A stretch of DNA of 64,000 bases, taken from NCBI GenBank assembly GCA_965204375.1, contig OZ241986.1, positions 1,280,001 to 1,344,000 of the forward strand. Direction: 5' to 3'. The notes beneath the pieces were generated by a model. That model ran no database searches. It saw only the letters and a list, made by a program, of their open reading frames with translations, and was not told where the DNA came from. Shown in pieces: positions 33,213 to 40,510 of the stretch (within the stretch, counting starts at the first letter, position 1; each line of letters starts with the position of its first letter). Source of the stretch: Candidatus Latescibacterota bacterium (GTDB lineage: Bacteria; Latescibacterota; UBA2968). Made by a program: the position numbers and the translations under genes.

Positions 33213-34624
33213 TTGGAGATGGATGGCGATCAAACTGAGATGTTAGACGATATCCTGAAGATGATCCTGACGTATATCCAGTCTCAGGGTTATGACCGAG
33301 TACGGCTTTATCTCTATAACAAAGAGCGGGATGTGATGGAGGGGGCCTTCCAGGTGGGCATGGAACACGAGTTTCCGTTTTCCACCATCGTATATCCATT
33401 GAAAAGGGATCCCTACGCAAAACAGAGACTGGCCTCCAACCGCCCCTGGATCTATCGGGCCGGGAGGCCGGAATACGAGGTGGTTAGCCATCTCAATAGA
33501 GAAGCCGGTATCTTCTCCGACGCGACATCTCCTGAGCTGGAATGGGCCGAAATTCTCCTGAAGATTGTAGAGGGAGGCAGAGAAATTTTGATCGGGCAGA
33601 TCGGCCTGGACAACGAGTCCAGCAGGCGTCCTCTGGACCAGAAGCGACTGGACCGATTGATGGTGTACGCCTCCCATGCGGCCCTGGCTATCAGACATAC
33701 GCAACTCTACCATCGGATGGCTGAAGAGGTGCAGCACCGCACCTCAGAGCTAAATGAGCAAAACAGACAACAGGAGGCACTGCTGCATATCAATCAGGCC
33801 GTGCAGGAGATGAAGCGCGTCTCAGACCTTGGACAGATTGTTCGGGTCTGTTACAAGCATCTACGGGAACTGGAGTTGGATTTCCAGGCGATGGCGATCC
33901 ACCGGCTAATCGATGAAGAAACACAGACATTTGAGTCTTATGAGATCCAGCCTTCGGGAAAGTTCCACAGGCTGATGATGAAACGCGCCAACATCTACCG
34001 GATGTGGCTGGGTGGACAGACGGTTTATCGACGGGATCTGGAAGTGGACCCGGGCGGGATGACGGACGAGGCACTGACGGCGATCCACAGGCGCTACGGG
34101 ATTAGTCCCCGTTGCATCCTGGACATTCCACACACTCTGGGAACGGTCGCCCTTTTGAGTGTGCATCCGAACGCCTTTGCCGAATCCGAAAAGGCATTTC
34201 TGGAACGGGTTGCCAGCGTGTTGTCCATGGGCCTCGTGCGGGTGGCGGACTTGGAGCAGATTCGCAACTATCAGGTACAATTGCGGACTCTGGCATCTGA
34301 ATTGACGCTGGCCGAGGAGAAGGAACGGCGTCGCATAGCAAGAGATCTGCACGACGGGATCGGTCAGACTTTACTGGTTTCGAGGATGAAGCTGAGAGGA
34401 TCGAGGGCCCCGACATCTGCTCCTGAGCTTGTGAGGTCTATGGACGAAGCCCGTGAGTTTATCGATCAGGCGATTCAGAGCGTGCGATCGCTGACCTTTG
34501 AGCTCAGCCTTCCGATTCTTTACGAACTGGAGTTTGGCGCGGCGATGGAGTGGCTGGTTGAACAGATCCAGGAACAGCACGATGTTCAGATCGACTTAGA
34601 GGACGACGGGCAGTCTGAAAAAAT
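33213..34624 (+). pseudogene. GAF-GAF-HisKA_3 sensor histidine kinase, 5' fragment (interrupted by transposon)
   Basis: ERRRIARDLHDGIGQTL H-box; frame breaks at the left TIR; rejoining with 39350-39677 restores ...GQSEKMGEEVTVLLFR... in frame. Confidence 0.9.
34617..34624. repeat. 8-bp target site duplication GAAAAAAT (second copy 39342-39349)
   Basis: Identical octamer directly abuts both TIRs. Confidence 0.95.
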
Positions 34625-34661
34625 GGGGATTATGTAGAATAGTGTCCATAAGAAAAACGCC

Positions 34662-34998: not shown

Positions 34999-35036
34999 AA
35001 AAAAAAGAAGGCTTGCGCTTTTGGGAGCGCAAGCCT
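34999..35036 (-). terminator. Minus-strand intrinsic terminator within the transposase leader
   Basis: 11-bp perfect stem aggcttgcgct/agcgcaagcct with U-tract only on the minus strand. Confidence 0.6.
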
Positions 35037-35144
35037 CTAAGTGGAGAAACAGGCAAATCGTCGAACCTCCCGTATTCCTCGCACAATTCAAAGATAAGGT
35101 GTGTTGAGCCAAAAGACAACATCTTTTTTTTGTTGAGGTGTGCC

Positions 35145-36083
35145 ATGGCTACCAATGCACCAGGCATGCATTTCCGTAAGGGCATGTCTCTCATCCAGCT
35201 ATTCAAGATGTTCCCGGATGATGAGACAGCCGAGAAGTGGTTTATTCACACGCGCTGGCCGGATGGTATCGCTTGCCCGCGATGTGGATCCGTCAACGTT
35301 CAGGAAAAGGCGATACACCCAACAATGCCTCACCGATGCAGAGACTGTCGTAGATATTTCTCTGTCAAGAAAGGCACAATGATGGAATGTTCAAATGTAG
35401 GTTATCAAATATGGATAATCGCCATTTACCTCTGGACAACAAACCTGAAAGGTGTTTCGTCCATGCACCTGCACCGCGATGTAGATGTGACACAGAGAAC
35501 CGCATGGTTTCTTCTGCACCGGATCAGACACGCTATGACGCCTGAACAGGTCGAACTGTTTGACGGCACAGTAGAGGTCGATGAGACGTATGTCGGAGGG
35601 AAGGAAGGGAATAAGCACGCGAAAGACAAACTGCGCTTAGGGGGCACGGCGGGCAAAACGCCAGTCGTTGGTGCGAAGAATAGAGAAACCAAACAGGTGC
35701 AGGCAGAAGTGTTTGAGGATGTAGATGAAGATGCGATAAATCAGTTTATTGAGGATTGTGTTGAAAAAGGCGCGACCGTGTACACAGACGGGTCACACGT
35801 CTATAACGCTCTGGAGGGGTATGAACACGATAAAGTGATTCACTCACGCGGTGAATATGTGAGAGGAGATGTATCAACAAACGGGATCGAGTCTTTTTGG
35901 TCGATGATAAAACGCGCAATCATGGGGGTGTATCACAAAATCAGCAAAAAACACTTGGGGAAGTATGTCGCTGAGTTTGTGGCACGGCAAAATATGAGAC
36001 CGCGAGATACCATCGACCAAATGAAACTGATTGCGGAATGCTTTGAAGGGAAAAGGCTTAGGTATTGTGAGTTGGTTTCATAG
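35145..36083 (+). CDS. IS1595-family DDE transposase with N-terminal Zn ribbon
   Basis: RWPDG-CPRC...CRDC Zn ribbon, VEVDETYVGG, VYTDG, STNGIESFWSMIKR, YHKISKKHL..YVAEF. Confidence 0.96.
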   Translation: MATNAPGMHFRKGMSLIQLFKMFPDDETAEKWFIHTRWPDGIACPRCGSVNVQEKAIHPTMPHRCRDCRRYFSVKKGTMMECSNVGYQIWIIAIYLWTTNLKGVSSMHLHRDVDVTQRTAWFLLHRIRHAMTPEQVELFDGTVEVDETYVGGKEGNKHAKDKLRLGGTAGKTPVVGAKNRETKQVQAEVFEDVDEDAINQFIEDCVEKGATVYTDGSHVYNALEGYEHDKVIHSRGEYVRGDVSTNGIESFWSMIKRAIMGVYHKISKKHLGKYVAEFVARQNMRPRDTIDQMKLIAECFEGKRLRYCELVS

Positions 36084-36320: not shown

Positions 36321-36482
36321 TTAATTTATCCTTATCTCAATTTCTGGTTGTTGCACCCAATAGACCCATATTGGACTTGTAGATGCAGGGCCACCATGTC
36401 GATTTACCTGGTTAGAATTGTCTGGTTGCTTGTCCGGCGGATTTGAGTTGACGGGTATATCTAACTCTGATATTTTATTCAC
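36321..36482 (-). CDS. 53-aa Pro/Asn-rich microprotein (MNKISELDIPVNSNPPDKQPDNSNQ...)
   Basis: Not in ORF track; AAGGAG RBS + GTG; first 25 aa homologous to 39008-39268. Confidence 0.6.
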   Translation of the reverse strand: MNKISELDIPVNSNPPDKQPDNSNQVNRHGGPASTSPIWVYWVQQPEIEIRIN

Positions 36483-36529
36483 GGCTTTTCTCCTTTTTTA
36501 CGGGGGAGGAAGGTGGTATTTTATTCATG

Positions 36530-36556
36530 AGGCCGTGTTTACCGCACGGCCTTTTT
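36530..36556 (+). terminator. Intrinsic terminator-like hairpin (homolog in inverted orientation at about 38931-38963)
   Basis: aggccgtg-loop-cacggcct followed by a T-run. Confidence 0.55.
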
Positions 36557-36559
36557 AAT

Positions 36560-36706
36560 TTACCTAAACAGGCTTGCAAGCGCAACCCCGAAAATGACGA
36601 GAAGAACACCACTCATAACAGCCATACGACGGTTGTGTATTTTCTCCTCGTGGTCCAGTTTTTGTTGCCACTGTTCTCGGTATTCTTTCCACTCCTCGTC
36701 TGTCAT
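36560..36706 (-). CDS. 48-aa charged helix + C-terminal TM microprotein
   Basis: Not in ORF track; MTDEEWKEYREQWQQKLDHEEKIHNRRMAVMSGVLLVIFGVALASLFR; ATGA overlap with the peptidase stop. Confidence 0.65.
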   Translation of the reverse strand: MTDEEWKEYREQWQQKLDHEEKIHNRRMAVMSGVLLVIFGVALASLFR

Positions 36707-37653
36707 GGCGCACCGTCCACAACAATGTGTATATGCGTGTGGTCATGCACATGCTTGAAAACTGGTTGGCCGATTGCGGGCTTTGTCAATACCGGATGGG
36801 GCATCTGTGCTTTGTTGTAGTCCACTACATGTCCCAAATCGTGCAACATACCGAGCGTAACTTTGCTGATGACGCTTTGTGGGGCTACGTATGGTTGCAT
36901 TATATCCCACATCATTTCGGGATACTTCCAGTGTGTGGTCTCCATTTCCATTGGAATACGCAAATCAGGAATAGCGAAAGAAAGTTTTTCGCCCAAATGG
37001 TAAAGGACTTCTCTATACCCCTGGACGCCGTGTGCCCCACTGTAATACTTTACACTGGATACCACTTCCAAATATTCTTTGATATACACGTCAGAAAAGC
37101 CGAGTGCGTGTCCAATCTCGTGAAGGATTACTGCCCGTTTTTGTGCCTGTGTCAAAGTGTTCAGGTAGTCATACAGCCACACTTCAGCATAAAAGGGCAA
37201 CCCACCCATTGTCGGAGAACGGGCGACGGTAAGGTGCGTGGTCGCCACCGCGTTAGGATTTGTGGGCACTTTCCAAACAAACTTCACCAATAAATCATCC
37301 ACACGCGCCACTGGCGGAATGGCCGATATATGCGAATATGTAAAGGCCGGCATATCGGGCAACCCGCCTACAATCACGCCTTCCCACTGATCCCTCGCCC
37401 AAATTATGGCGTTGGATACTTCAAGCGGAAATGTACCCGGGTTGTCTAAATACACGCCAATATCAAAACGTTCTTGAGGAACAGGTACAGTCTGTGCTGA
37501 TTGCAAAGGCTCTGGCGTCTCATTCACCTGTACCTGTGTTGGCGCAGGCACTTTCGCACACGCCATGAGAACTGTGAGAATAAAACAAGTTGCCCCTAAT
37601 TGTAAAAGTGTGTAAATTGGACGCTTATTCCCGCCTGTGAGTATTGCACTCAT
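36703..37653 (-). CDS. Leishmanolysin-like (M8) zinc metallopeptidase, predicted lipoprotein
   Basis: Lipobox LMAC; HEIGHALGF; downstream THW third ligand, DIMQP Met-turn, SKVTLGMLHDLG. Confidence 0.8.
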   Translation of the reverse strand: MSAILTGGNKRPIYTLLQLGATCFILTVLMACAKVPAPTQVQVNETPEPLQSAQTVPVPQERFDIGVYLDNPGTFPLEVSNAIIWARDQWEGVIVGGLPDMPAFTYSHISAIPPVARVDDLLVKFVWKVPTNPNAVATTHLTVARSPTMGGLPFYAEVWLYDYLNTLTQAQKRAVILHEIGHALGFSDVYIKEYLEVVSSVKYYSGAHGVQGYREVLYHLGEKLSFAIPDLRIPMEMETTHWKYPEMMWDIMQPYVAPQSVISKVTLGMLHDLGHVVDYNKAQMPHPVLTKPAIGQPVFKHVHDHTHIHIVVDGAP

Positions 37654-37777
37654 AGAGAAACCCTCTCTGTGTGTGGTGATATTCCGGCGGATTGCCGTGT
37701 GCTGCTTCTCCCGGACTGCGACCAACAGGTAACGGGGACAGCACACGGCGCACCTTATAGGGGTGATAAAATGAAAA

Positions 37778-37984
37778 CTACTGACCGGATTCTTTTTTTA
37801 GCTCTTGAATGGCCCCAAGAACCCCATTTACCAAATCCATTGCGTCTTCCGGAGACACCCGATAGACATGAAAACCGGGAATTGTTTTTTGATCTAAGTC
37901 TTCCGATATGGCAATGTCCAGCATCTGCTTGTTGTGGACCAAATAAATCCTAAGTCCACCTTCTCCAACTGGTTCTTGTTGCAT
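37778..37984 (-). CDS. 68-aa hypothetical cargo protein downstream of RNA cassette 1
   Basis: GGAAGG RBS before ATG 37984 (MQQEPVGEGG...). Confidence 0.6.
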   Translation of the reverse strand: MQQEPVGEGGLRIYLVHNKQMLDIAISEDLDQKTIPGFHVYRVSPEDAMDLVNGVLGAIQELKKESGQ

Positions 37985-38063
37985 AAAAATTATCCTTCCC
38001 CATAAAAAATTCCCGCAGTTATCTGGCGGTGGTGTTCCGCGCTCCGTTATGGAGCCGGGCAGA

Positions 38064-38200
38064 GATACCACCTCACGCAGACATACTGCGGGAAAAGTCC
38101 TACCTATTTGCCAAGATCGGGTAGCTAATCCGTTCTTTGTAGGTTGGCTATTCTATTCAGTAGGCTACCCGACGAAGCGGGTCTGCCGTAAGGTGGTATC
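38064..38200 (-). ncRNA. C4-like antisense structured RNA, copy 1
   Basis: Closing stem GAUACCACCU/AGGUGGUAUC, small CCCG..CGGG hairpin, CCUAC/GUAGG arm, bulge UUCCCGCAGU complementary to downstream ACUGCGGGAA (38010-38019). Confidence 0.6.
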
Positions 38201-38208
38201 AAAAAGAA

Positions 38209-38272
38209 AGCCCTGACGGTTCCATCAAACTGTTGATGAAGCGTCAGGGCTTCGAGTTTGTCCGTCAGGGCT
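38209..38272 (-). ncRNA. P4 CI-like double-bulged hairpin RNA / attenuator, copy 1
   Basis: Stem AGCCCUGACGG/CCGUCAGGGCU + U-tract; bulges AUCAAC and AUGGA complementary to the leader at 38301-38319. Confidence 0.55.
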
Positions 38273-38324
38273 AAAGCGATATTCGTAATGTAAGACAAAA
38301 TTATCAACAATCTGATGGATGCTG

Positions 38325-38354
38325 ATAATTTAACTTATCTAACCTGAGTGTCAA
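38325..38354 (-). promoter_or_regulatory. Sigma70-type promoter driving RNA cassette 1 and cargo operon
   Basis: TTGACA-N16-TAAATT; positionally conserved in copy 2. Confidence 0.6.
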
Positions 38355-38377
38355 GATTTTTTGTATTTTATCTCCGG

Positions 38378-38397
38378 CACTATTCTACATAATCCCC
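38378..38397. repeat. Internal second right-end TIR of the transposon
   Basis: cactattctacataatcccc, identical to the outer 20 bp of the right TIR. Confidence 0.9.
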
Positions 38398-38481
38398 TTC
38401 GATGGTCTGTGCAGACGCCATTGTTTTGTAAATATAGTCTTTTAATTCTTCTATTTCACGTTCAATATCGTATCTCTGCAT
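38380..38481 (-). pseudogene. ORF downstream of RNA cassette 2, truncated by the internal TIR
   Basis: MQRYDIEREIEELKDYIYKTMASAQTIE then reads GDYVE* inside the TIR. Confidence 0.55.
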
Positions 38482-38549
38482 AAAAAAATCCGCAATAATC
38501 TGGTGAGTGGGTGCGACACCTTACATATTCGTGCAAGGTGTCGGGCAGA

Positions 38550-38681
38550 AGCACCACTTACGCAGACATACTGCGGAAACGTCCCTACTTATTCGTCCAG
38601 ACCGGGGAGCGACCCCAACCTTTTTGACAGACTATTGTATTGGGTAGGATACCCGACGAATCGGGCTGCCTAAGCGGTGCT
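38550..38681 (-). ncRNA. C4-like antisense structured RNA, copy 2
   Basis: Closing stem AGCACCGCUUA/UAAGUGGUGCU (compensatory changes vs copy 1), same hairpin and arm, bulge UCCGCAGU pairs with AUUGCGGA (38489-38496) just before ATG 38481. Confidence 0.6.
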
Positions 38682-38700
38682 ATTTATTTTTCACACATAA

Positions 38701-38774
38701 AAAGCCCCGGCGGTTCCGTCAAACTGCTGATGAGGATTCAGAAAAAATCCTCACAGTTTGTCCGCCAGGGCTTT
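38701..38774 (-). ncRNA. P4 CI-like double-bulged hairpin RNA / attenuator, copy 2
   Basis: Outer stem AAAGCCC..GGCGG/CCGCC..GGGCUUU; 38715-38731 is a perfect 17-nt complement of the leader at 38819-38835. Confidence 0.55.
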
Positions 38775-38840
38775 GTAAAAAAAGCGCATTCAAAATAGAG
38801 AAAAGATCAAACAAGCTTATCAGCAGTTTGACGGATGCGT

Positions 38841-38870
38841 ATAATGTAACCTTTCAGAGATAGATGTCAA
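38841..38870 (-). promoter_or_regulatory. Sigma70-type promoter of RNA cassette 2
   Basis: TTGACA-N16-TACATT followed by the same GCATCC leader start as copy 1. Confidence 0.6.
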
Positions 38871-39007
38871 GGTTTAATCCTCATAATACTCAAATTTTCG
38901 GTTGCCCATCACAGAGTAGTTTGGTAAATTAAAAGCCGTGCAGTGGAGAAAGCCACCACACGGCAATTGCGATTTTCACCCCAACCTTCCAAGAAAGGGG
39001 AAAAAGC

Positions 39008-39268
39008 GTGAACAAGATACCAGAACTGCATATACCAGTCAACCCAAATCCACCGGACAAACCGCCAGACAATTCTAACCAAGATGGGTATTTTTCATGT
39101 GTAAAAGAAAAGAAAGGGGGTGATCTCTCAATGAACAAAACAATACGCATCACGCTCATGATCGTGGTTGTCTTTGTCTGCACACTCTTTTGGACGAAAA
39201 CGATTGATAATCTCGAAGCAGGAGTTATCATCGGTAAATCCAAAATTGGCAAAGCTACACTGAGATAA
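39008..39268 (+). CDS. Pro/Asn-rich leader fused in frame to a 45-aa hydrophobic peptide (own RBS, ATG 39131)
   Basis: MNKIPELHIPVNPNPPDKPPDNSNQ homologous to 36321-36482; MNKTIRITLMIVVVFVCTLFW single TM. Confidence 0.55.
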   Translation: MNKIPELHIPVNPNPPDKPPDNSNQDGYFSCVKEKKGGDLSMNKTIRITLMIVVVFVCTLFWTKTIDNLEAGVIIGKSKIGKATLR

Positions 39269-39349
39269 TCACACCCCTCTCCCCGTGTTGATCGACATTC
39301 CCGGCGTCAACACTATTTGGACACTATTCTACATAATCCCCGAAAAAAT

Positions 39350-39677
39350 GGGTGAGGAGGTAACGGTGCTTCTCTTCCGCACGGTGAGGGAGTTGCTGAT
39401 CAATGTCGTCAAGCACGCCCGGGCACACAGCGTGAGGGTGTCGATCCGAAAAGATGGTAGCCGTATAAGGATTGAGGTCGAAGATGACGGGGTCGGATTT
39501 GACACTTCGCAAATCGATTTTGGCCGCACACCCGGCAAGGGGGGATTTGGTTTCTTCAGCATCCGGGAACGTCTAAATTTTTTGGGGGGAAATTTTCAAG
39601 TCGAATCCGAACCCGGCCAGGGCACCCGGGCCGTCCTGACGGCACCGCTGAAGCAGAATGGGCACCCCGGGACGTAA
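39350..39677 (+). pseudogene. Sensor kinase 3' fragment (HATPase_c domain)
   Basis: ELLINVVKHA N-box, DDGVGF G1, GFGFFSIRER, GQGT. Confidence 0.9.
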
Positions 39678-39856
39678 ACTGGCAGGAGGGAGAAGGGGCA
39701 TGCTGCAAAGGCTCATCCATTTCCCGATGTCAATTCAGGTATATGGAAGTACACTGCTGGGGTTTTACCCCATTGCGCTCTTTCTTTTGCATCCTTATTT
39801 TGACTCTACAAACGCGCGCTGTTGAAGCAGAATGGAGAATCCAAAGGAGATGTGCC

Positions 39857-40510
39857 ATGAGCATCCGGATTGTTCTGGCGGATGACCACAAGATCCTGCG
39901 TGCCGGGCTGCGTGCCATGATTGTGGAACAACCCGACATGGAGGTGGTGGGAGAGGCCGAGAACGGGCGGACGGCGGTAAATCTGACCCGTGAGCTGTCG
40001 CCCGATGTGGTCATCATGGATATCGGTATGCCCGATTTGAACGGTATTGAGGCCACCCGCCAGATCGTTGCCGAGGTCCCCAGTGTTAAGATCATAGGCC
40101 TGTCGATGTATTCCGACAGGCGGTACGTGGCGGGCCTGTTCGGCGCGGGCGCGTCTGGCTATCTGCTGAAGGATATCGAGTTCGAGGAATTGATCGAGGC
40201 CATTCAAGCCGTAGTTGAAGGCCAGGTCTATGTGAGTTCCGGGGTGACGGGCATTGTGATCGAAGACTATGTACACCGCGTATCGGGCACAAAAAATGGT
40301 GGTATTTCTGCGCTGACACCCCGGGAACGCGAGGTGCTTCAACTCCTGGTCGAAGGCCGATCCACGAAGCAGATTGCTTATGAACTTGGAGTGAGTATTA
40401 AGACCGTTGAATCACACCGTCACAGAGTGATGGAAAAACTGGATCTTCACAACATCGCCGATCTCACCAAATATGCGATCCGCGCAGGGCTGACATCCCT
40501 CGAAGTCTGA
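39857..40510 (+). CDS. NarL/LuxR-family response regulator
   Basis: LADDH, MDIGMP phospho-Asp, GYLLK, LTPREREVLQL...KTVESHR HTH. Confidence 0.95.
   Translation: MSIRIVLADDHKILRAGLRAMIVEQPDMEVVGEAENGRTAVNLTRELSPDVVIMDIGMPDLNGIEATRQIVAEVPSVKIIGLSMYSDRRYVAGLFGAGASGYLLKDIEFEELIEAIQAVVEGQVYVSSGVTGIVIEDYVHRVSGTKNGGISALTPREREVLQLLVEGRSTKQIAYELGVSIKTVESHRHRVMEKLDLHNIADLTKYAIRAGLTSLEV

What the first reader, a model, noticed from the sequence alone, without database searches (positions are those of the whole stretch)
38005..38870. Two diverged copies of a promoter + dual antisense-RNA switch (P4 CI-like and P1 C4-like) inside an IS1595 transposon
Seen: on the minus strand the same architecture occurs twice (38005-38354 and 38480-38870). 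TTGACA promoter -> GCATCC leader -> double-bulged hairpin whose bulges are complementary to that leader (perfect 17 nt in copy 2, and the leader co-varies with the hairpin between copies) -> ~135-nt multi-branched RNA with a compensatorily mutated closing stem and a conserved UCC(C)GCAGUAU bulge -> variable hairpin -> complementary target just upstream of the first cargo start codon. Established: phage P4 CI RNA and P1/P7 C4 RNA use this stem-with-bulges-versus-cis-target logic to silence toxic or antirepressor operons. Inference: an insertion sequence has adopted a stacked phage-immunity-type RNA switch to gate its cargo operon, and processed RNAs could act in trans between element copies. 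I know of no description of this in IS1595 elements.
Basis: partly seen in the sequence, partly recalled or inferred. Interest (0 to 1): 0.85.

Follow-up and report, generated by a model that had tools for sequence, protein, structure and literature searches.

The report
New leader RNA switch in IS1595
Two tandem copies of a folded leader RNA sit in front of the cargo genes of a jumping gene, and the larger part of that RNA belongs to a widespread, uncatalogued RNA family that looks like an on/off switch for genes carried by such elements.

Summary
The same promoter, leader, bulged terminator T1, ~130-nt branched RNA and second terminator T2 occur twice on the minus strand. Both lie in a 4,717-bp IS1595-family element with 24-nt inverted repeats and an 8-bp target duplication that splits a histidine-kinase gene.

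The phage C4/CI reading is only partly supported. Rfam 15 gives no relevant match. The branched RNA is not an antisense RNA. It belongs to a large structured 5'-leader family:
- 8 copies in this genome
- present in 39 of 61 related genomes
- at least 120 loci in about nine phylum-level groups, and plasmids of cultured Komagataeibacter and Gluconacetobacter
- IS1595 transposase genes nearby in 20 of 125 loci

Its long closing helix P1 and a 9-bp long-range helix A covary strongly. The 3' strand of P1 can instead pair with a downstream copy of its 5' partner. That copy either completes a terminator (here) or holds the ribosome-binding site (elsewhere). This is ON/OFF switch logic; the input signal is unknown.

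The leader/T1 module occurs in only 4 of 143 copies, and leader and hairpin interior change together. No expression data exist.

The parts
34625..34648 (.). Left terminal inverted repeat of the IS1595-family element. The 8-bp target duplication GAAAAAAT lies just outside it.
   Evidence: 24-nt perfect inverted repeat with 39318-39341.
35013..36083 (+). IS1595-family transposase gene. The likely true start is about 40 codons into this ORF.
   Evidence: Pfam DDE_Tnp_IS1595 at 1.5e-38 and Zn_ribbon_IS1595 at 8.1e-06. Paralogues at 78-82% identity occur elsewhere in the genome.
36409..36587 (+). Region X, the 3' flank of the transposase gene. An inverted copy, X', lies at 38900-39081.
   Evidence: Inverted repeats I1 (91 nt, 81%) and I2 (35 nt, 71%). 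X' contains a terminator-like hairpin at 38964-38935 on the minus strand.
36703..37746 (-). Cargo gene 2: a 347-aa ORF with an HExxH motif, weakly leishmanolysin-like (M8 zinc peptidase).
   Evidence: Pfam Peptidase_M8 at 24.7 bits against a cut-off of 21, E = 1.1e-05.
37778..37984 (-). Cargo gene 1: a 68-aa ORF with no family match. Its ribosome-binding site GGAAGGA lies at 37999-37993.
   Evidence: ORF. No Pfam match. Coordinates.
38004..38098 (-). Copy 1 OFF-state hairpin T2. The junction J plus the P1 3' strand (38098-38068) pairs with the P1-5' mimic (38035-38010). Small hairpin T (38058-38037) forms its tip, and U6 (38009-38004) follows.
   Evidence: This hairpin is part of the minimum-free-energy fold. 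Forcing P1 instead costs only 3.2 kcal/mol.
38054..38196 (-). Copy 1 of the branched leader domain. Its parts are:
- P1 5' strand at 38196-38182
- linker CCCG.. at 38181-38174
- helix A 5' strand at 38173-38165
- P3 at 38164-38160 with 38103-38099
- A-rich internal loop
- P4 at 38148-38144 with 38114-38110
- P5 hairpin at 38132-38118
- junction J at 38098-38082
- P1 3' strand at 38081-38068
- helix A 3' strand at 38062-38054
   Evidence: Matches covariance model R1 at 107.2 bits, E = 6e-23. Helices are supported by covariation. Coordinates.
38201..38271 (-). Copy 1 terminator T1. It has a 10-bp G+C-rich base (38271-38262 with 38219-38210), an interior with 3' bulges (38238-38221) complementary to the leader, and a U-tract at 38209-38201.
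38302..38354 (-). Copy 1 promoter (-35 at 38354-38349, -10 at 38332-38327) and leader L (38319-38302). The promoter begins 24 nt inside the inner inverted repeat.
   Evidence: Promoter scan scores 10 of 12. L pairs with the T1 interior at -24.6 kcal/mol.
38378..38397 (.). Third (inner) copy of the right inverted repeat. It sits between copy 1 and copy 2 and cuts off the small ORF that follows copy 2.
   Evidence: 20-nt perfect match (D3 and I5).
38379..38481 (-). Short ORF (about 33 codons) after copy 2. It starts at ATG 38481 and runs into the inner inverted repeat. It is probably the stump of an older cargo gene. The exact stop position was read by eye.
   Evidence: Sequence. ATG coordinate.
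38482..38583 (-). Copy 2 OFF-state hairpin T2. J plus the P1 3' strand (38583-38551) pairs with the mimic (38513-38489). Hairpin T (38543-38514) forms its tip, and U7 (38488-38482) follows.
   Evidence: Part of the minimum-free-energy fold. Forcing P1 costs 5.8 kcal/mol.
38540..38680 (-). Copy 2 of the branched leader domain. P1 is 38680-38666 with 38565-38551. Helix A is 38657-38649 with 38548-38540, with 8 of 9 positions paired.
   Evidence: R1 match at 93.7 bits, E = 1.3e-19. Coordinates.
38699..38771 (-). Copy 2 terminator T1. Its base is 38771-38762 with 38713-38704. The interior target of the leader is 38731-38715. U5 lies at 38703-38699.
38819..38870 (-). Copy 2 promoter (-35 at 38870-38865, -10 at 38848-38843) and leader L (38835-38819).
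   Evidence: Promoter scan scores 10 of 12. A 17-nt perfect pairing at -31.2 kcal/mol.
39318..39341 (.). Outer right inverted repeat, followed by the second copy of the target duplication GAAAAAAT.

Best explanation
Each copy is a two-stage, cis-acting transcription-attenuation leader for the cargo genes of an IS1595-family element.

Stage 2, the ~130-nt branched RNA, belongs to a widespread structured 5'-leader family that is not in Rfam 15.
- In the ON fold, a 15-20-bp closing helix P1 ties up the RNA just upstream of the expression platform. A 9-bp long-range helix A (GUCGGGUNN with NNGCCCGRC) and a conserved arm P3-P4-P5 with A-rich internal loops complete this fold.
- In the OFF fold, the junction J and the 3' strand of P1 pair with a downstream copy of the P1 5' strand. 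In this window that pairing builds a long hairpin ending in a U-tract (an intrinsic terminator) just before the first cargo start codon. In most other members the same pairing buries the ribosome-binding site.
- The two folds are nearly equal in energy. A signal that stabilises the folded core would therefore turn the cargo on. The signal could be a small molecule, a protein or another RNA; which one is not known.

Stage 1, the leader L plus terminator T1, is a genus-restricted addition. The 5' leader can pair with the 3' interior of T1. This removes T1's middle helix, and for steric reasons is unlikely to coexist with T1's base helix, so it should act as an antiterminator.

Shown: the anatomy, the covariation, the alternative pairings and the link with insertion sequences.
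Inferred: that transcripts start and stop where predicted, that the folds exchange, and what triggers the exchange.
For: Family membership and spread:
- Model R1 finds 8 copies in the window's own genome.
- R1 matches 39 of 61 related genomes, with 1-9 copies each.

Structure:
- On 58 sequences, 93.4% of cells are paired against 83.9% in shuffles.
- The covariation score is 0.340 against 0.168, with 0 of 500 shuffles as high. Slid controls score 0.072 or less.
- Helix A is 99.6% paired, with six pair types at each of its two variable positions.
- P1 with its own partner averages -28.2 kcal/mol, against -13.5 with other sequences' partners. 106 of 121 own pairs reach -24 or lower, against 9 of 605 cross pairs. 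There are 105 distinct P1 3' strands.

The RNA starts at P1: a TANNNT hexamer ends 5-7 nt before the first P1 base in 49 of 102 sequences. Only one other offset (11 nt, 11 cases) has more than 4.

Switch logic:
- The OFF hairpin is the minimum-free-energy fold in copies 1 and 2.
- The ON fold costs 0 to 5.8 kcal/mol more in the six copies tested.
- An exact repeat of 8 nt or more of the P1 5' strand lies downstream in 14 of 110 sequences, against 11 of 550 cross controls. For 7 nt or more it is 30 of 110 against 55 of 550.
- The best partner of J plus the P1 3' strand contains a Shine-Dalgarno core with a start codon 3-11 nt later in 51 of 120 sequences, against 284 of 1200 random windows.
- U-tract versions are seen in IS copies 1 and 2, in three other copies in this genome and in G016.

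Stage 1:
- Cognate L:T1 energies are -24.6, -31.2, -28.4 and -30.4 kcal/mol.
- The G016 leader scores only -6 to -10 against the other hairpins.

Link with insertion sequences:
- An IS1595 transposase ORF lies within 3 kb in 20 of 125 loci. Three of these, from three phyla, were confirmed by Pfam.
- A Nitrospirales genome holds at least 3 copies of a ~2.4-kb element bounded by inverted repeats. It carries a transposase gene, the domain and a glycosyltransferase gene.
Against: - There is no expression evidence of any kind. Starts, stops and read-through are all predicted.
- The genes downstream are extremely varied. Of 102 downstream ORFs, 60 Pfam families were hit and none in more than 2 members. 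This gives no hint of a ligand and is unusual for a metabolite riboswitch.
- P1 and helix A cross and are joined by only 0-3 nt. They may not coexist in one fold, so which helices belong to ON and which to OFF is not settled.
- The downstream-mimic and Shine-Dalgarno enrichments are moderate (about 2- to 6-fold). Generic duplex z-scores against shuffled downstream sequence were weak: median -1.0, with 28% below -2.
- Hairpin T is only modestly enriched over shuffled controls, 95 of 121 against 366 of 605.
- The pattern used to collect homologues fixes much of the core, so those positions say nothing about conservation. Many sequences are related, which inflates shuffle tests.
- Stage 1 rests on four instances, two of them nearly identical.
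Confidence: 0.6

Rival explanations
1. One reading: a phage-immunity-type antisense switch. The T1 hairpin, and perhaps the branched RNA, are cut out of the leader as stable small RNAs. Their bulges then pair with the leader or the pre-start target, in cis or in trans between copies, to cause termination or block translation, as P1 C4 and P4 CI RNAs do.
For: - The leader and the hairpin interior are complementary, and compensatory changes keep them so.
- Cross-pairing between copy 1 and copy 2 is nearly as good as cognate pairing (-20.2 and -27.1 kcal/mol).
- In the paralogous IS copies at G000 4.398 Mb and 3.520 Mb, a leader 87% identical over 95 nt runs straight into a ribosome-binding site and a ~150-aa ORF. 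A T1-like hairpin with a U-tract lies on the opposite strand after that ORF. This looks like a separate antisense-type RNA gene aimed at the leader.
Against: - No match to C4, c4-2, c4-a1b1 or isrK, even at E <= 10.
- The setting is not a prophage immunity region. No phage record matches the domain.
- The branched RNA is found in 139 of 143 copies without any leader/T1 module. Its 'bulge-target' pairing is explained by terminator or ribosome-site competition with P1.
- Nothing shows processing.
- No promoter for the opposite-strand hairpin was identified.
Confidence: 0.15
2. The branched domain is mainly a stand-alone non-coding RNA ending at T2 (~200 nt). It acts in trans or as a scaffold, possibly as a dimer through a self-complementary apical loop. 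The cargo genes are simply what lies downstream.
For: - Copies at G000 662.5 kb and 4.304 Mb are followed within ~100 nt by only a tiny ORF and a terminator-like hairpin.
- The core sequence is conserved across phyla.
- The P5 loop holds a 4-nt palindrome in 78 of 121 distinct arms, against 19% of shuffled loops. The alternatives to the common AGCU (GGCC, CAUG, UGCA, CGCG, AAUU, GAUC) each need two or more coordinated changes.
Against: - 60 of the 78 palindromes are the same AGCU, so independent events are few.
- A common variant (UCGCU) and all short alphaproteobacterial arms with UUCG-type loops are not palindromic.
- The pairing with the ribosome-binding site or terminator is tied to each downstream gene, which points to control in cis.
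Confidence: 0.12
3. The domain is a constitutive 5' structure with no sensing role. Either it is a base-paired 5' end that protects the cargo mRNA from decay, or its long perfect P1 duplex is an RNase III processing site that separates the leader from the mRNA.
For: - P1 begins at the predicted transcription start.
- P1 is a 15-20-bp near-perfect duplex.
- The variety of downstream genes fits a generic expression cassette.
Against: - It does not explain the conserved core, helix A, the nearly isoenergetic alternative fold or the downstream copy of the P1 5' strand.
- In the window's own copies P1 is internal to the transcript, lying after T1.
Confidence: 0.1

Closest known systems
P1/P7 c4 antisense RNA (Rfam C4, c4-2, c4-a1b1) and the P4 CI RNA / isrK
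   Same: An RNA hairpin whose unpaired interior bases are complementary to another segment of the same transcript. It lies in a mobile element upstream of the genes it could silence. Action in trans between copies is conceivable. This applies to module 1 only.
   Different: - No sequence or structure match.
- One continuous 16-17-nt complementarity to the extreme 5' leader, not two loop segments aimed at a ribosome-binding site.
- The hairpin is itself an intrinsic terminator.
- The setting is an insertion sequence, not a prophage.
- Processing is unknown.

The properties of C4 and CI given here are recalled, not taken from a call.
ON-type transcriptional riboswitches (for example the pbuE/ydhL adenine riboswitch)
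   Same: - A conserved folded domain closed by P1.
- The 3' part of the domain plus the P1 3' strand can instead form the 5' half of a terminator.
- The two states are nearly equal in energy.
- The same domain is found with either terminator or ribosome-site expression platforms.
   Different: - No ligand is known.
- The downstream genes share no pathway.
- P1 is unusually long (15-20 bp) and starts at +1.
- There is an extra crossing helix A.
- The RNA is carried by insertion sequences.

The pbuE mechanism is recalled.
Classical leader attenuators with competing terminator and antiterminator (trp-type, and pT181/pIP501 antisense-driven attenuation)
   Same: Module 1 is a promoter-proximal terminator whose formation competes with an alternative pairing of an upstream segment.
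   Different: - No leader peptide and no identified antisense RNA.
- The upstream segment pairs with the interior 3' side of the terminator, not with its 5' arm.

The comparison is recalled.
RNA-level control in other insertion sequences (IS10 RNA-IN/RNA-OUT and fold-back inhibition; the IS200 5'UTR structure and its derived small RNAs)
   Same: Structured 5' RNA encoded inside an insertion sequence close to an end, which limits expression of genes within the element. IS200 leader processing into regulatory RNAs appears in the abstract of PMC5435999, seen in the search listing.
   Different: Those systems control the transposase gene. Here the RNA precedes passenger genes, which are convergent with or downstream of the transposase gene. 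The RNA is also a large conserved domain shared across phyla.
IS1595-family elements with passenger genes
   Same: Transposase domains, short terminal inverted repeats, an 8-bp target duplication, and passenger genes inside the repeats.
   Different: None of my five searches turned up a paper describing a conserved leader RNA for these passenger genes. That IS1595 elements can carry passenger genes is recalled from the ISfinder literature. I did not read those papers.

Membership tests
Rfam C4 / c4-2 / c4-a1b1 / isrK (phage antisense immunity RNAs) | Match to the family covariance models | tested here: not met
   0 matches at gathering score in the whole window. With permissive filters and E <= 10 on 37700-39200 there were 6 hits (MicC, a viral pseudoknot, two snoRNAs, a CRISPR repeat, rivX). 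All were far below gathering score and none was from these families.
Rfam C4 / P4 CI-type immunity RNAs | Location in a prophage or satellite immunity region upstream of an antirepressor or toxic operon | tested here: not met
   The element is an IS1595-family insertion sequence. The cargo is a 68-aa ORF plus an M8-like peptidase ORF. No match in 50,697 phage records.
Rfam C4 / P4 CI-type immunity RNAs | A hairpin with unpaired segments complementary to a cis target, kept by covariation | tested here: met
   Module 1 only. L pairs with the T1 interior over 16-17 bp in four instances, and the cognate pair is specific in G016.
Rfam C4 / P4 CI-type immunity RNAs | Processing of the RNA out of a longer transcript (RNase P or others) | not testable with these tools
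   No RNA run holds the stretch.
Riboswitch (ligand-sensing leader) | A conserved domain with helices supported by covariation | tested here: met
Riboswitch (ligand-sensing leader) | A variable expression platform that competes with a helix of the domain, in both terminator and ribosome-site forms | tested here: met
   Terminator form. Ribosome-site form enriched, 51 of 120 against 284 of 1200. P1-5' mimic in 14 of 110 against 11 of 550.
Riboswitch (ligand-sensing leader) | A coherent set of regulated genes that points to a ligand | tested here: not met
   102 downstream ORFs hit 60 Pfam families, none in more than 2 members.
Riboswitch (ligand-sensing leader) | Direct ligand binding | not testable with these tools
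   Needs in-line probing or similar.
IS1595 family insertion sequence | DDE transposase with the IS1595 catalytic domain and an N-terminal zinc ribbon | tested here: met
   PF12762 at 1.5e-38 and PF12760 at 8.1e-06.
IS1595 family insertion sequence | Terminal inverted repeats and an 8-bp target duplication | tested here: met
   24-nt perfect inverted repeats. GAAAAAAT lies on both sides, and removing the element with one copy restores the HisKA_3/HATPase_c reading frame. That 8 bp is typical of the family is recalled.

The most novel reading that the evidence does not exclude
The branched domain is a new class of sensing RNA. It would be either a riboswitch for a still unknown, widely relevant signal, or an RNA that senses its own copy number by loop-loop dimerisation through the self-complementary P5 loop. 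It has spread across at least nine phylum-level groups as the built-in expression switch of passenger genes in IS1595-family and neighbouring IS elements. In that case horizontally moving cargo would arrive with its own conditional ON switch. In this genus a second, antisense-like attenuator has been stacked in front of it.
Probability: 0.3. Interest if true: 0.9.

Novelty: new variant of a known kind. Interest (0 to 1): 0.7.

Why it matters
Insertion sequences that carry passenger genes are usually thought of as passive carriers. Here the passenger genes come with a large, highly conserved and apparently bistable leader RNA. It is shared by elements in Latescibacterota, Binatia, Nitrospirota, Gemmatimonadota, Acidobacteriota, Proteobacteria and others, and it is missing from Rfam 15.

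If it senses a signal, it is a new orphan riboswitch-like class with hundreds of members. It would also be a ready-made example of regulation travelling together with mobile cargo.

It also occurs on plasmids of cultured Komagataeibacter and Gluconacetobacter, so it can be tested at the bench.

Tried and rejected
- **Rfam.** Three searches found nothing on the leader or the domain. One search covered 17 loci and returned only 2 tRNAs.
- **Papers.** Five full-text searches found no description of this RNA or of a leader RNA for IS1595 passenger genes. I saw only listings and abstract starts and read no paper. Supplements were not consulted. The one paper holding two of the typed motifs (a bioRxiv preprint on designed RNA tiles) was judged a coincidence from its title alone.
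- **Expression.** No RNA holder was listed for window 37700-39000.
- **Phage records.** No match.
- **Generic test for the OFF pairing.** A duplex test against shuffled downstream sequence was weak: median z = -1.0, and a U-rich tail in 5 of 121. I replaced it with more specific tests.
- **Dimer idea.** Support is only partial, so I kept it as a side observation.
- **Limits of model R1.** P1 could not be put into R1, because MAFFT did not align its 5' strand in register. R1 holds helix A, P3, P4 and P5 only. P1 was tested by own-versus-cross duplex energies instead.
- **Module 1 alignment.** Alignment A5 put G016 one column out of register, so the count of structure pairs was not run on it. 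Energies were used instead.
- **RNAalifold on 5 sequences** missed P1 but first showed helix A.
- **Rejected identities for the domain.**
  - tRNA-like or known ribozyme: no Rfam match.
  - Guide RNA for the transposase: no evidence, and the enzyme is a DDE type.
  - Chance hairpins: excluded by covariation.
Full report
**1. What is at the coordinates**

Read on the minus strand, window 38870-38001 holds the same series of elements twice:
- A near-consensus promoter. Copy 1 has TTGACA, 16 nt, then TAAATT, ending at 38327. Copy 2 has TTGACA, 16 nt, then TACATT, ending at 38843. Both score 10 of 12.
- A leader L that starts with GCAUCC.
- A long hairpin T1 with a 10-bp G+C-rich base, 3' bulges and a U-tract.
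- A ~130-nt branched domain closed by a long stem, P1.
- A small variable hairpin, T.
- A segment complementary to the conserved junction J plus the P1 3' strand, followed by U6 or U7 and an ATG.

The two leaders fold far better than shuffles (z = -7.1 each; 0 of 100 shuffles fold as well).

**2. The element**

A 24-nt perfect inverted repeat lies at 34625-34648 and 39318-39341. It is flanked on both sides by GAAAAAAT. Removing the element and one copy of that octamer restores the reading frame of a HisKA_3/HATPase_c histidine kinase. The whole 4,717 bp therefore transposed as one unit.

It encodes an IS1595-family transposase.

A third copy of the right repeat (20 nt, 38378-38397) lies exactly between copy 1 and copy 2. 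This gives two nested parts:
- Copy 1 is the promoter-proximal end of a 3.8-kb IS. Its promoter begins 24 nt inside that repeat.
- Copy 2 belongs to a 944-bp remnant of a second, related element that has lost its transposase gene.

The remnant keeps the transposase 3' flank, X', upstream of its promoter. X' is an inverted copy of region X at 36409-36587 and includes a terminator-like hairpin. The short ORF after copy 2 is cut off by the inner repeat.

Copy 1 precedes a 68-aa ORF and a 347-aa ORF with a weak M8 zinc-peptidase match. These are convergent with the transposase gene.

**3. The branched RNA belongs to a large family**

BLAST and a covariance model (R1) find 8 copies in this 6.3-Mb genome. 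One of them lies just downstream of a distant IS1595 paralogue.

R1 matches 39 of 61 related genomes, with 1-9 copies each. The spread is patchy: 18 of 20 genomes of the same genus, 15 of 15 of another genus, and none in several genera.

It also hits 5 viral contigs. By record titles these loci come from:
- Latescibacterota, Binatia, Nitrospirota, Gemmatimonadota
- Acidobacteriota, Verrucomicrobiota, Rhodothermales, Thermodesulfobacteriota
- Alpha- and Gammaproteobacteria, including cultured Acetobacter, Komagataeibacter, Gluconacetobacter and Parasphingopyxis

Ten plasmids of cultured Komagataeibacter and Gluconacetobacter carry it, in unannotated intergenic DNA.

Rfam 15 has nothing for it, either in the window or in 17 other loci. 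Five paper searches found no description (I saw listings only).

**4. Architecture and covariation**

The order of parts is: P1 5' strand, linker (usually CCC...), GUCGGGUNN, P3, an A-rich internal loop, P4, P5, the other side of the loop, P3', junction J, P1 3' strand, 0-3 nt, then NNGCCCGRC.

On 58 sequences, helices A, P3, P4 and P5 gave:
- 93.4% of cells paired, against 83.9% in shuffles
- a covariation score of 0.340 against 0.168, with 0 of 500 shuffles as high
- scores of 0.072 or less when the partners are slid by 1-3 columns

Helix A pairs GUCGGGUNN with NNGCCCGRC. It is 99.6% paired. Its two free positions show CG, AU, UG, GC, GU and UA, and GC, AU, UA, GU, CG and UG.

P1 is different in almost every lineage (105 distinct 3' strands) yet always complementary. 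Its own partner averages -28.2 kcal/mol, against -13.5 for other sequences' partners. 106 of 121 own pairs reach -24 or lower, against 9 of 605 cross pairs.

A -10-like hexamer ends 5-7 nt before the first P1 base in 49 of 102 sequences. In ordinary members the RNA therefore begins with P1.

P1 and helix A cross each other and are joined by 0-3 nt. They form either an unusual side-by-side pseudoknot or two alternative states. I could not decide which.

**5. Switch logic**

In both window copies the minimum-free-energy fold is not P1. It is a long hairpin in which J plus the P1 3' strand pairs with a downstream near-repeat of the P1 5' strand. Hairpin T forms its tip and a U-tract follows its foot. 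Forcing P1 costs only 3.2 and 5.8 kcal/mol, and 0-3.5 kcal/mol in four other copies.

Three other copies in this genome and one in G016 have the same terminator design.

Across the family:
- An exact repeat of 8 nt or more of the P1 5' strand lies downstream in 14 of 110 sequences, against 11 of 550 cross controls.
- The best partner of J plus the P1 3' strand includes a Shine-Dalgarno core and a start codon in 51 of 120 sequences, against 284 of 1200 random windows.
- The helix A 3' strand is also the 5' arm of hairpin T in 95 of 121 sequences, against 366 of 605 with shuffled downstream sequence. This enrichment is weaker.

A conserved domain with interchangeable terminator and ribosome-site platforms is the anatomy of an ON-type riboswitch. 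The input is unknown. The downstream genes give no clue: 102 ORFs hit 60 Pfam families, none more than twice. They include ankyrin repeats, DNA methylases, FGE-sulfatase, glycosyltransferases, CsgG, GmrSD, an integrase, a dynamin and DUF1232.

**6. The leader/T1 module**

Among 143 distinct domain copies examined, only four have a terminator directly upstream of P1. These are the two window copies and one each in genomes G012 and G016 of the same genus.

In all four, the leader pairs with the 3' bulges plus the 3' strand of T1's middle helix over 16-17 bp. The cognate energies are -24.6, -31.2, -28.4 and -30.4 kcal/mol. G016 has a quite different leader and a matching different interior; its leader scores only -6 to -10 against the others.

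This pairing crosses T1's base helix, and only 1-2 nt separate the two. The two pairings are therefore unlikely to coexist. I read L:T1 as an antiterminator competing with T1 (inference).

Two paralogous IS copies have the same leader but no domain. Their leader runs into a ~150-aa ORF, and a T1-like hairpin sits on the opposite strand behind it. This keeps an antisense-type reading alive for this module.

**7. Link with insertion sequences**

An IS1595-type transposase ORF lies within 3 kb of the domain in 20 of 125 loci. It is either upstream on the same strand or downstream and convergent. Pfam confirmed three of these, from Binatia, Nitrospirales and Gemmatimonadota.

In one Nitrospirales genome, a ~2.4-kb element bounded by perfect inverted repeats occurs at least three times with different flanks. 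It comprises the transposase gene, the domain and a family-25 glycosyltransferase gene.

In Alphaproteobacteria the neighbour is instead an IS4/IS5-family transposase, divergent and ~160 nt away.

**8. Comparison with known systems**

Module 1 works like a C4/CI-type or attenuator-type pairing, but it fails the membership tests for those families. Module 2 works like an ON riboswitch but lacks a coherent regulon. Control of passenger genes, rather than of the transposase, by a conserved RNA inside insertion sequences did not turn up in my searches.

**9. Verdict**

- The main result is a new, widespread leader-RNA family carried by insertion sequences.
- The mechanism is inferred from sequence alone.
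- No RNA data were available.

Noticed in passing
window 33213-34637 and 39285-39677: A GAF/HisKA_3 histidine kinase gene is split by the element. The response-regulator gene next to it (39743-40510) is intact. The kinase is presumably inactivated in this strain.
   Followed up: partly
window 38301-38329 and 38817-38845, plus strand: Promoter-like sites (TTATCA, 17 nt, then GATAAT or TATAAT) lie antisense to each leader and overlap the minus-strand -10 region. The one in copy 1 points out of the IS through the inner inverted repeat, so it may be an outward-reading promoter.
   Followed up: no
P5 hairpin: window 38118-38132 and 38604-38616; family-wide in L026-L187: The apical loop usually holds a 4-nt palindrome: AGCU in most, and GGCC, CAUG, UGCA, CGCG, AAUU or GAUC in others. 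78 of 121 distinct arms have one, against 19% of shuffled loops. This hints at loop-loop dimerisation. Copy 2 of the window has the non-palindromic UCGCU.
   Followed up: partly
G000:C1 4398600-4399650 and 3520770-3521800 (L002, L003): Two identical IS1595 paralogues carry the same promoter and leader (87% identical over 95 nt) but no branched domain. The leader runs into a ~150-aa ORF, and a T1-like hairpin with a U-tract lies on the opposite strand after it.
   Followed up: partly
G000:C1 659783-670762 (L013, L020, L021, L151, L154): A ~10-kb island is bounded by IS-like repeats with 2-3 mismatches, again with two right-end copies 863 bp apart. It holds two copies of the domain next to DUF1232-type genes, plus RadC-like, PIN-like and other mobile-element genes.
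   Followed up: no
L145-L147, L150, L062, L127 (Alphaproteobacteria and IMG/VR contigs): In these loci the domain lies ~160 nt from, and divergent to, an IS4/IS5-family transposase gene (DDE_Tnp_1 plus DUF4096). The domain may therefore travel with more than one IS family, or such ISs may insert next to it.
   Followed up: partly
L189 (G012:C82) about 895-960: This copy has an intact leader/T1 module, but the branched domain breaks off inside its P4/P5 arm, so it is a decayed copy.
   Followed up: no
L097 (Parvibaculaceae MAG) 3645 and 3791; L049 (Gluconacetobacter aggeris) 458 and 873: Two domain copies lie in tandem, 146 nt and 415 nt apart. Tandem arrangement therefore also occurs outside this window.
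   Followed up: no
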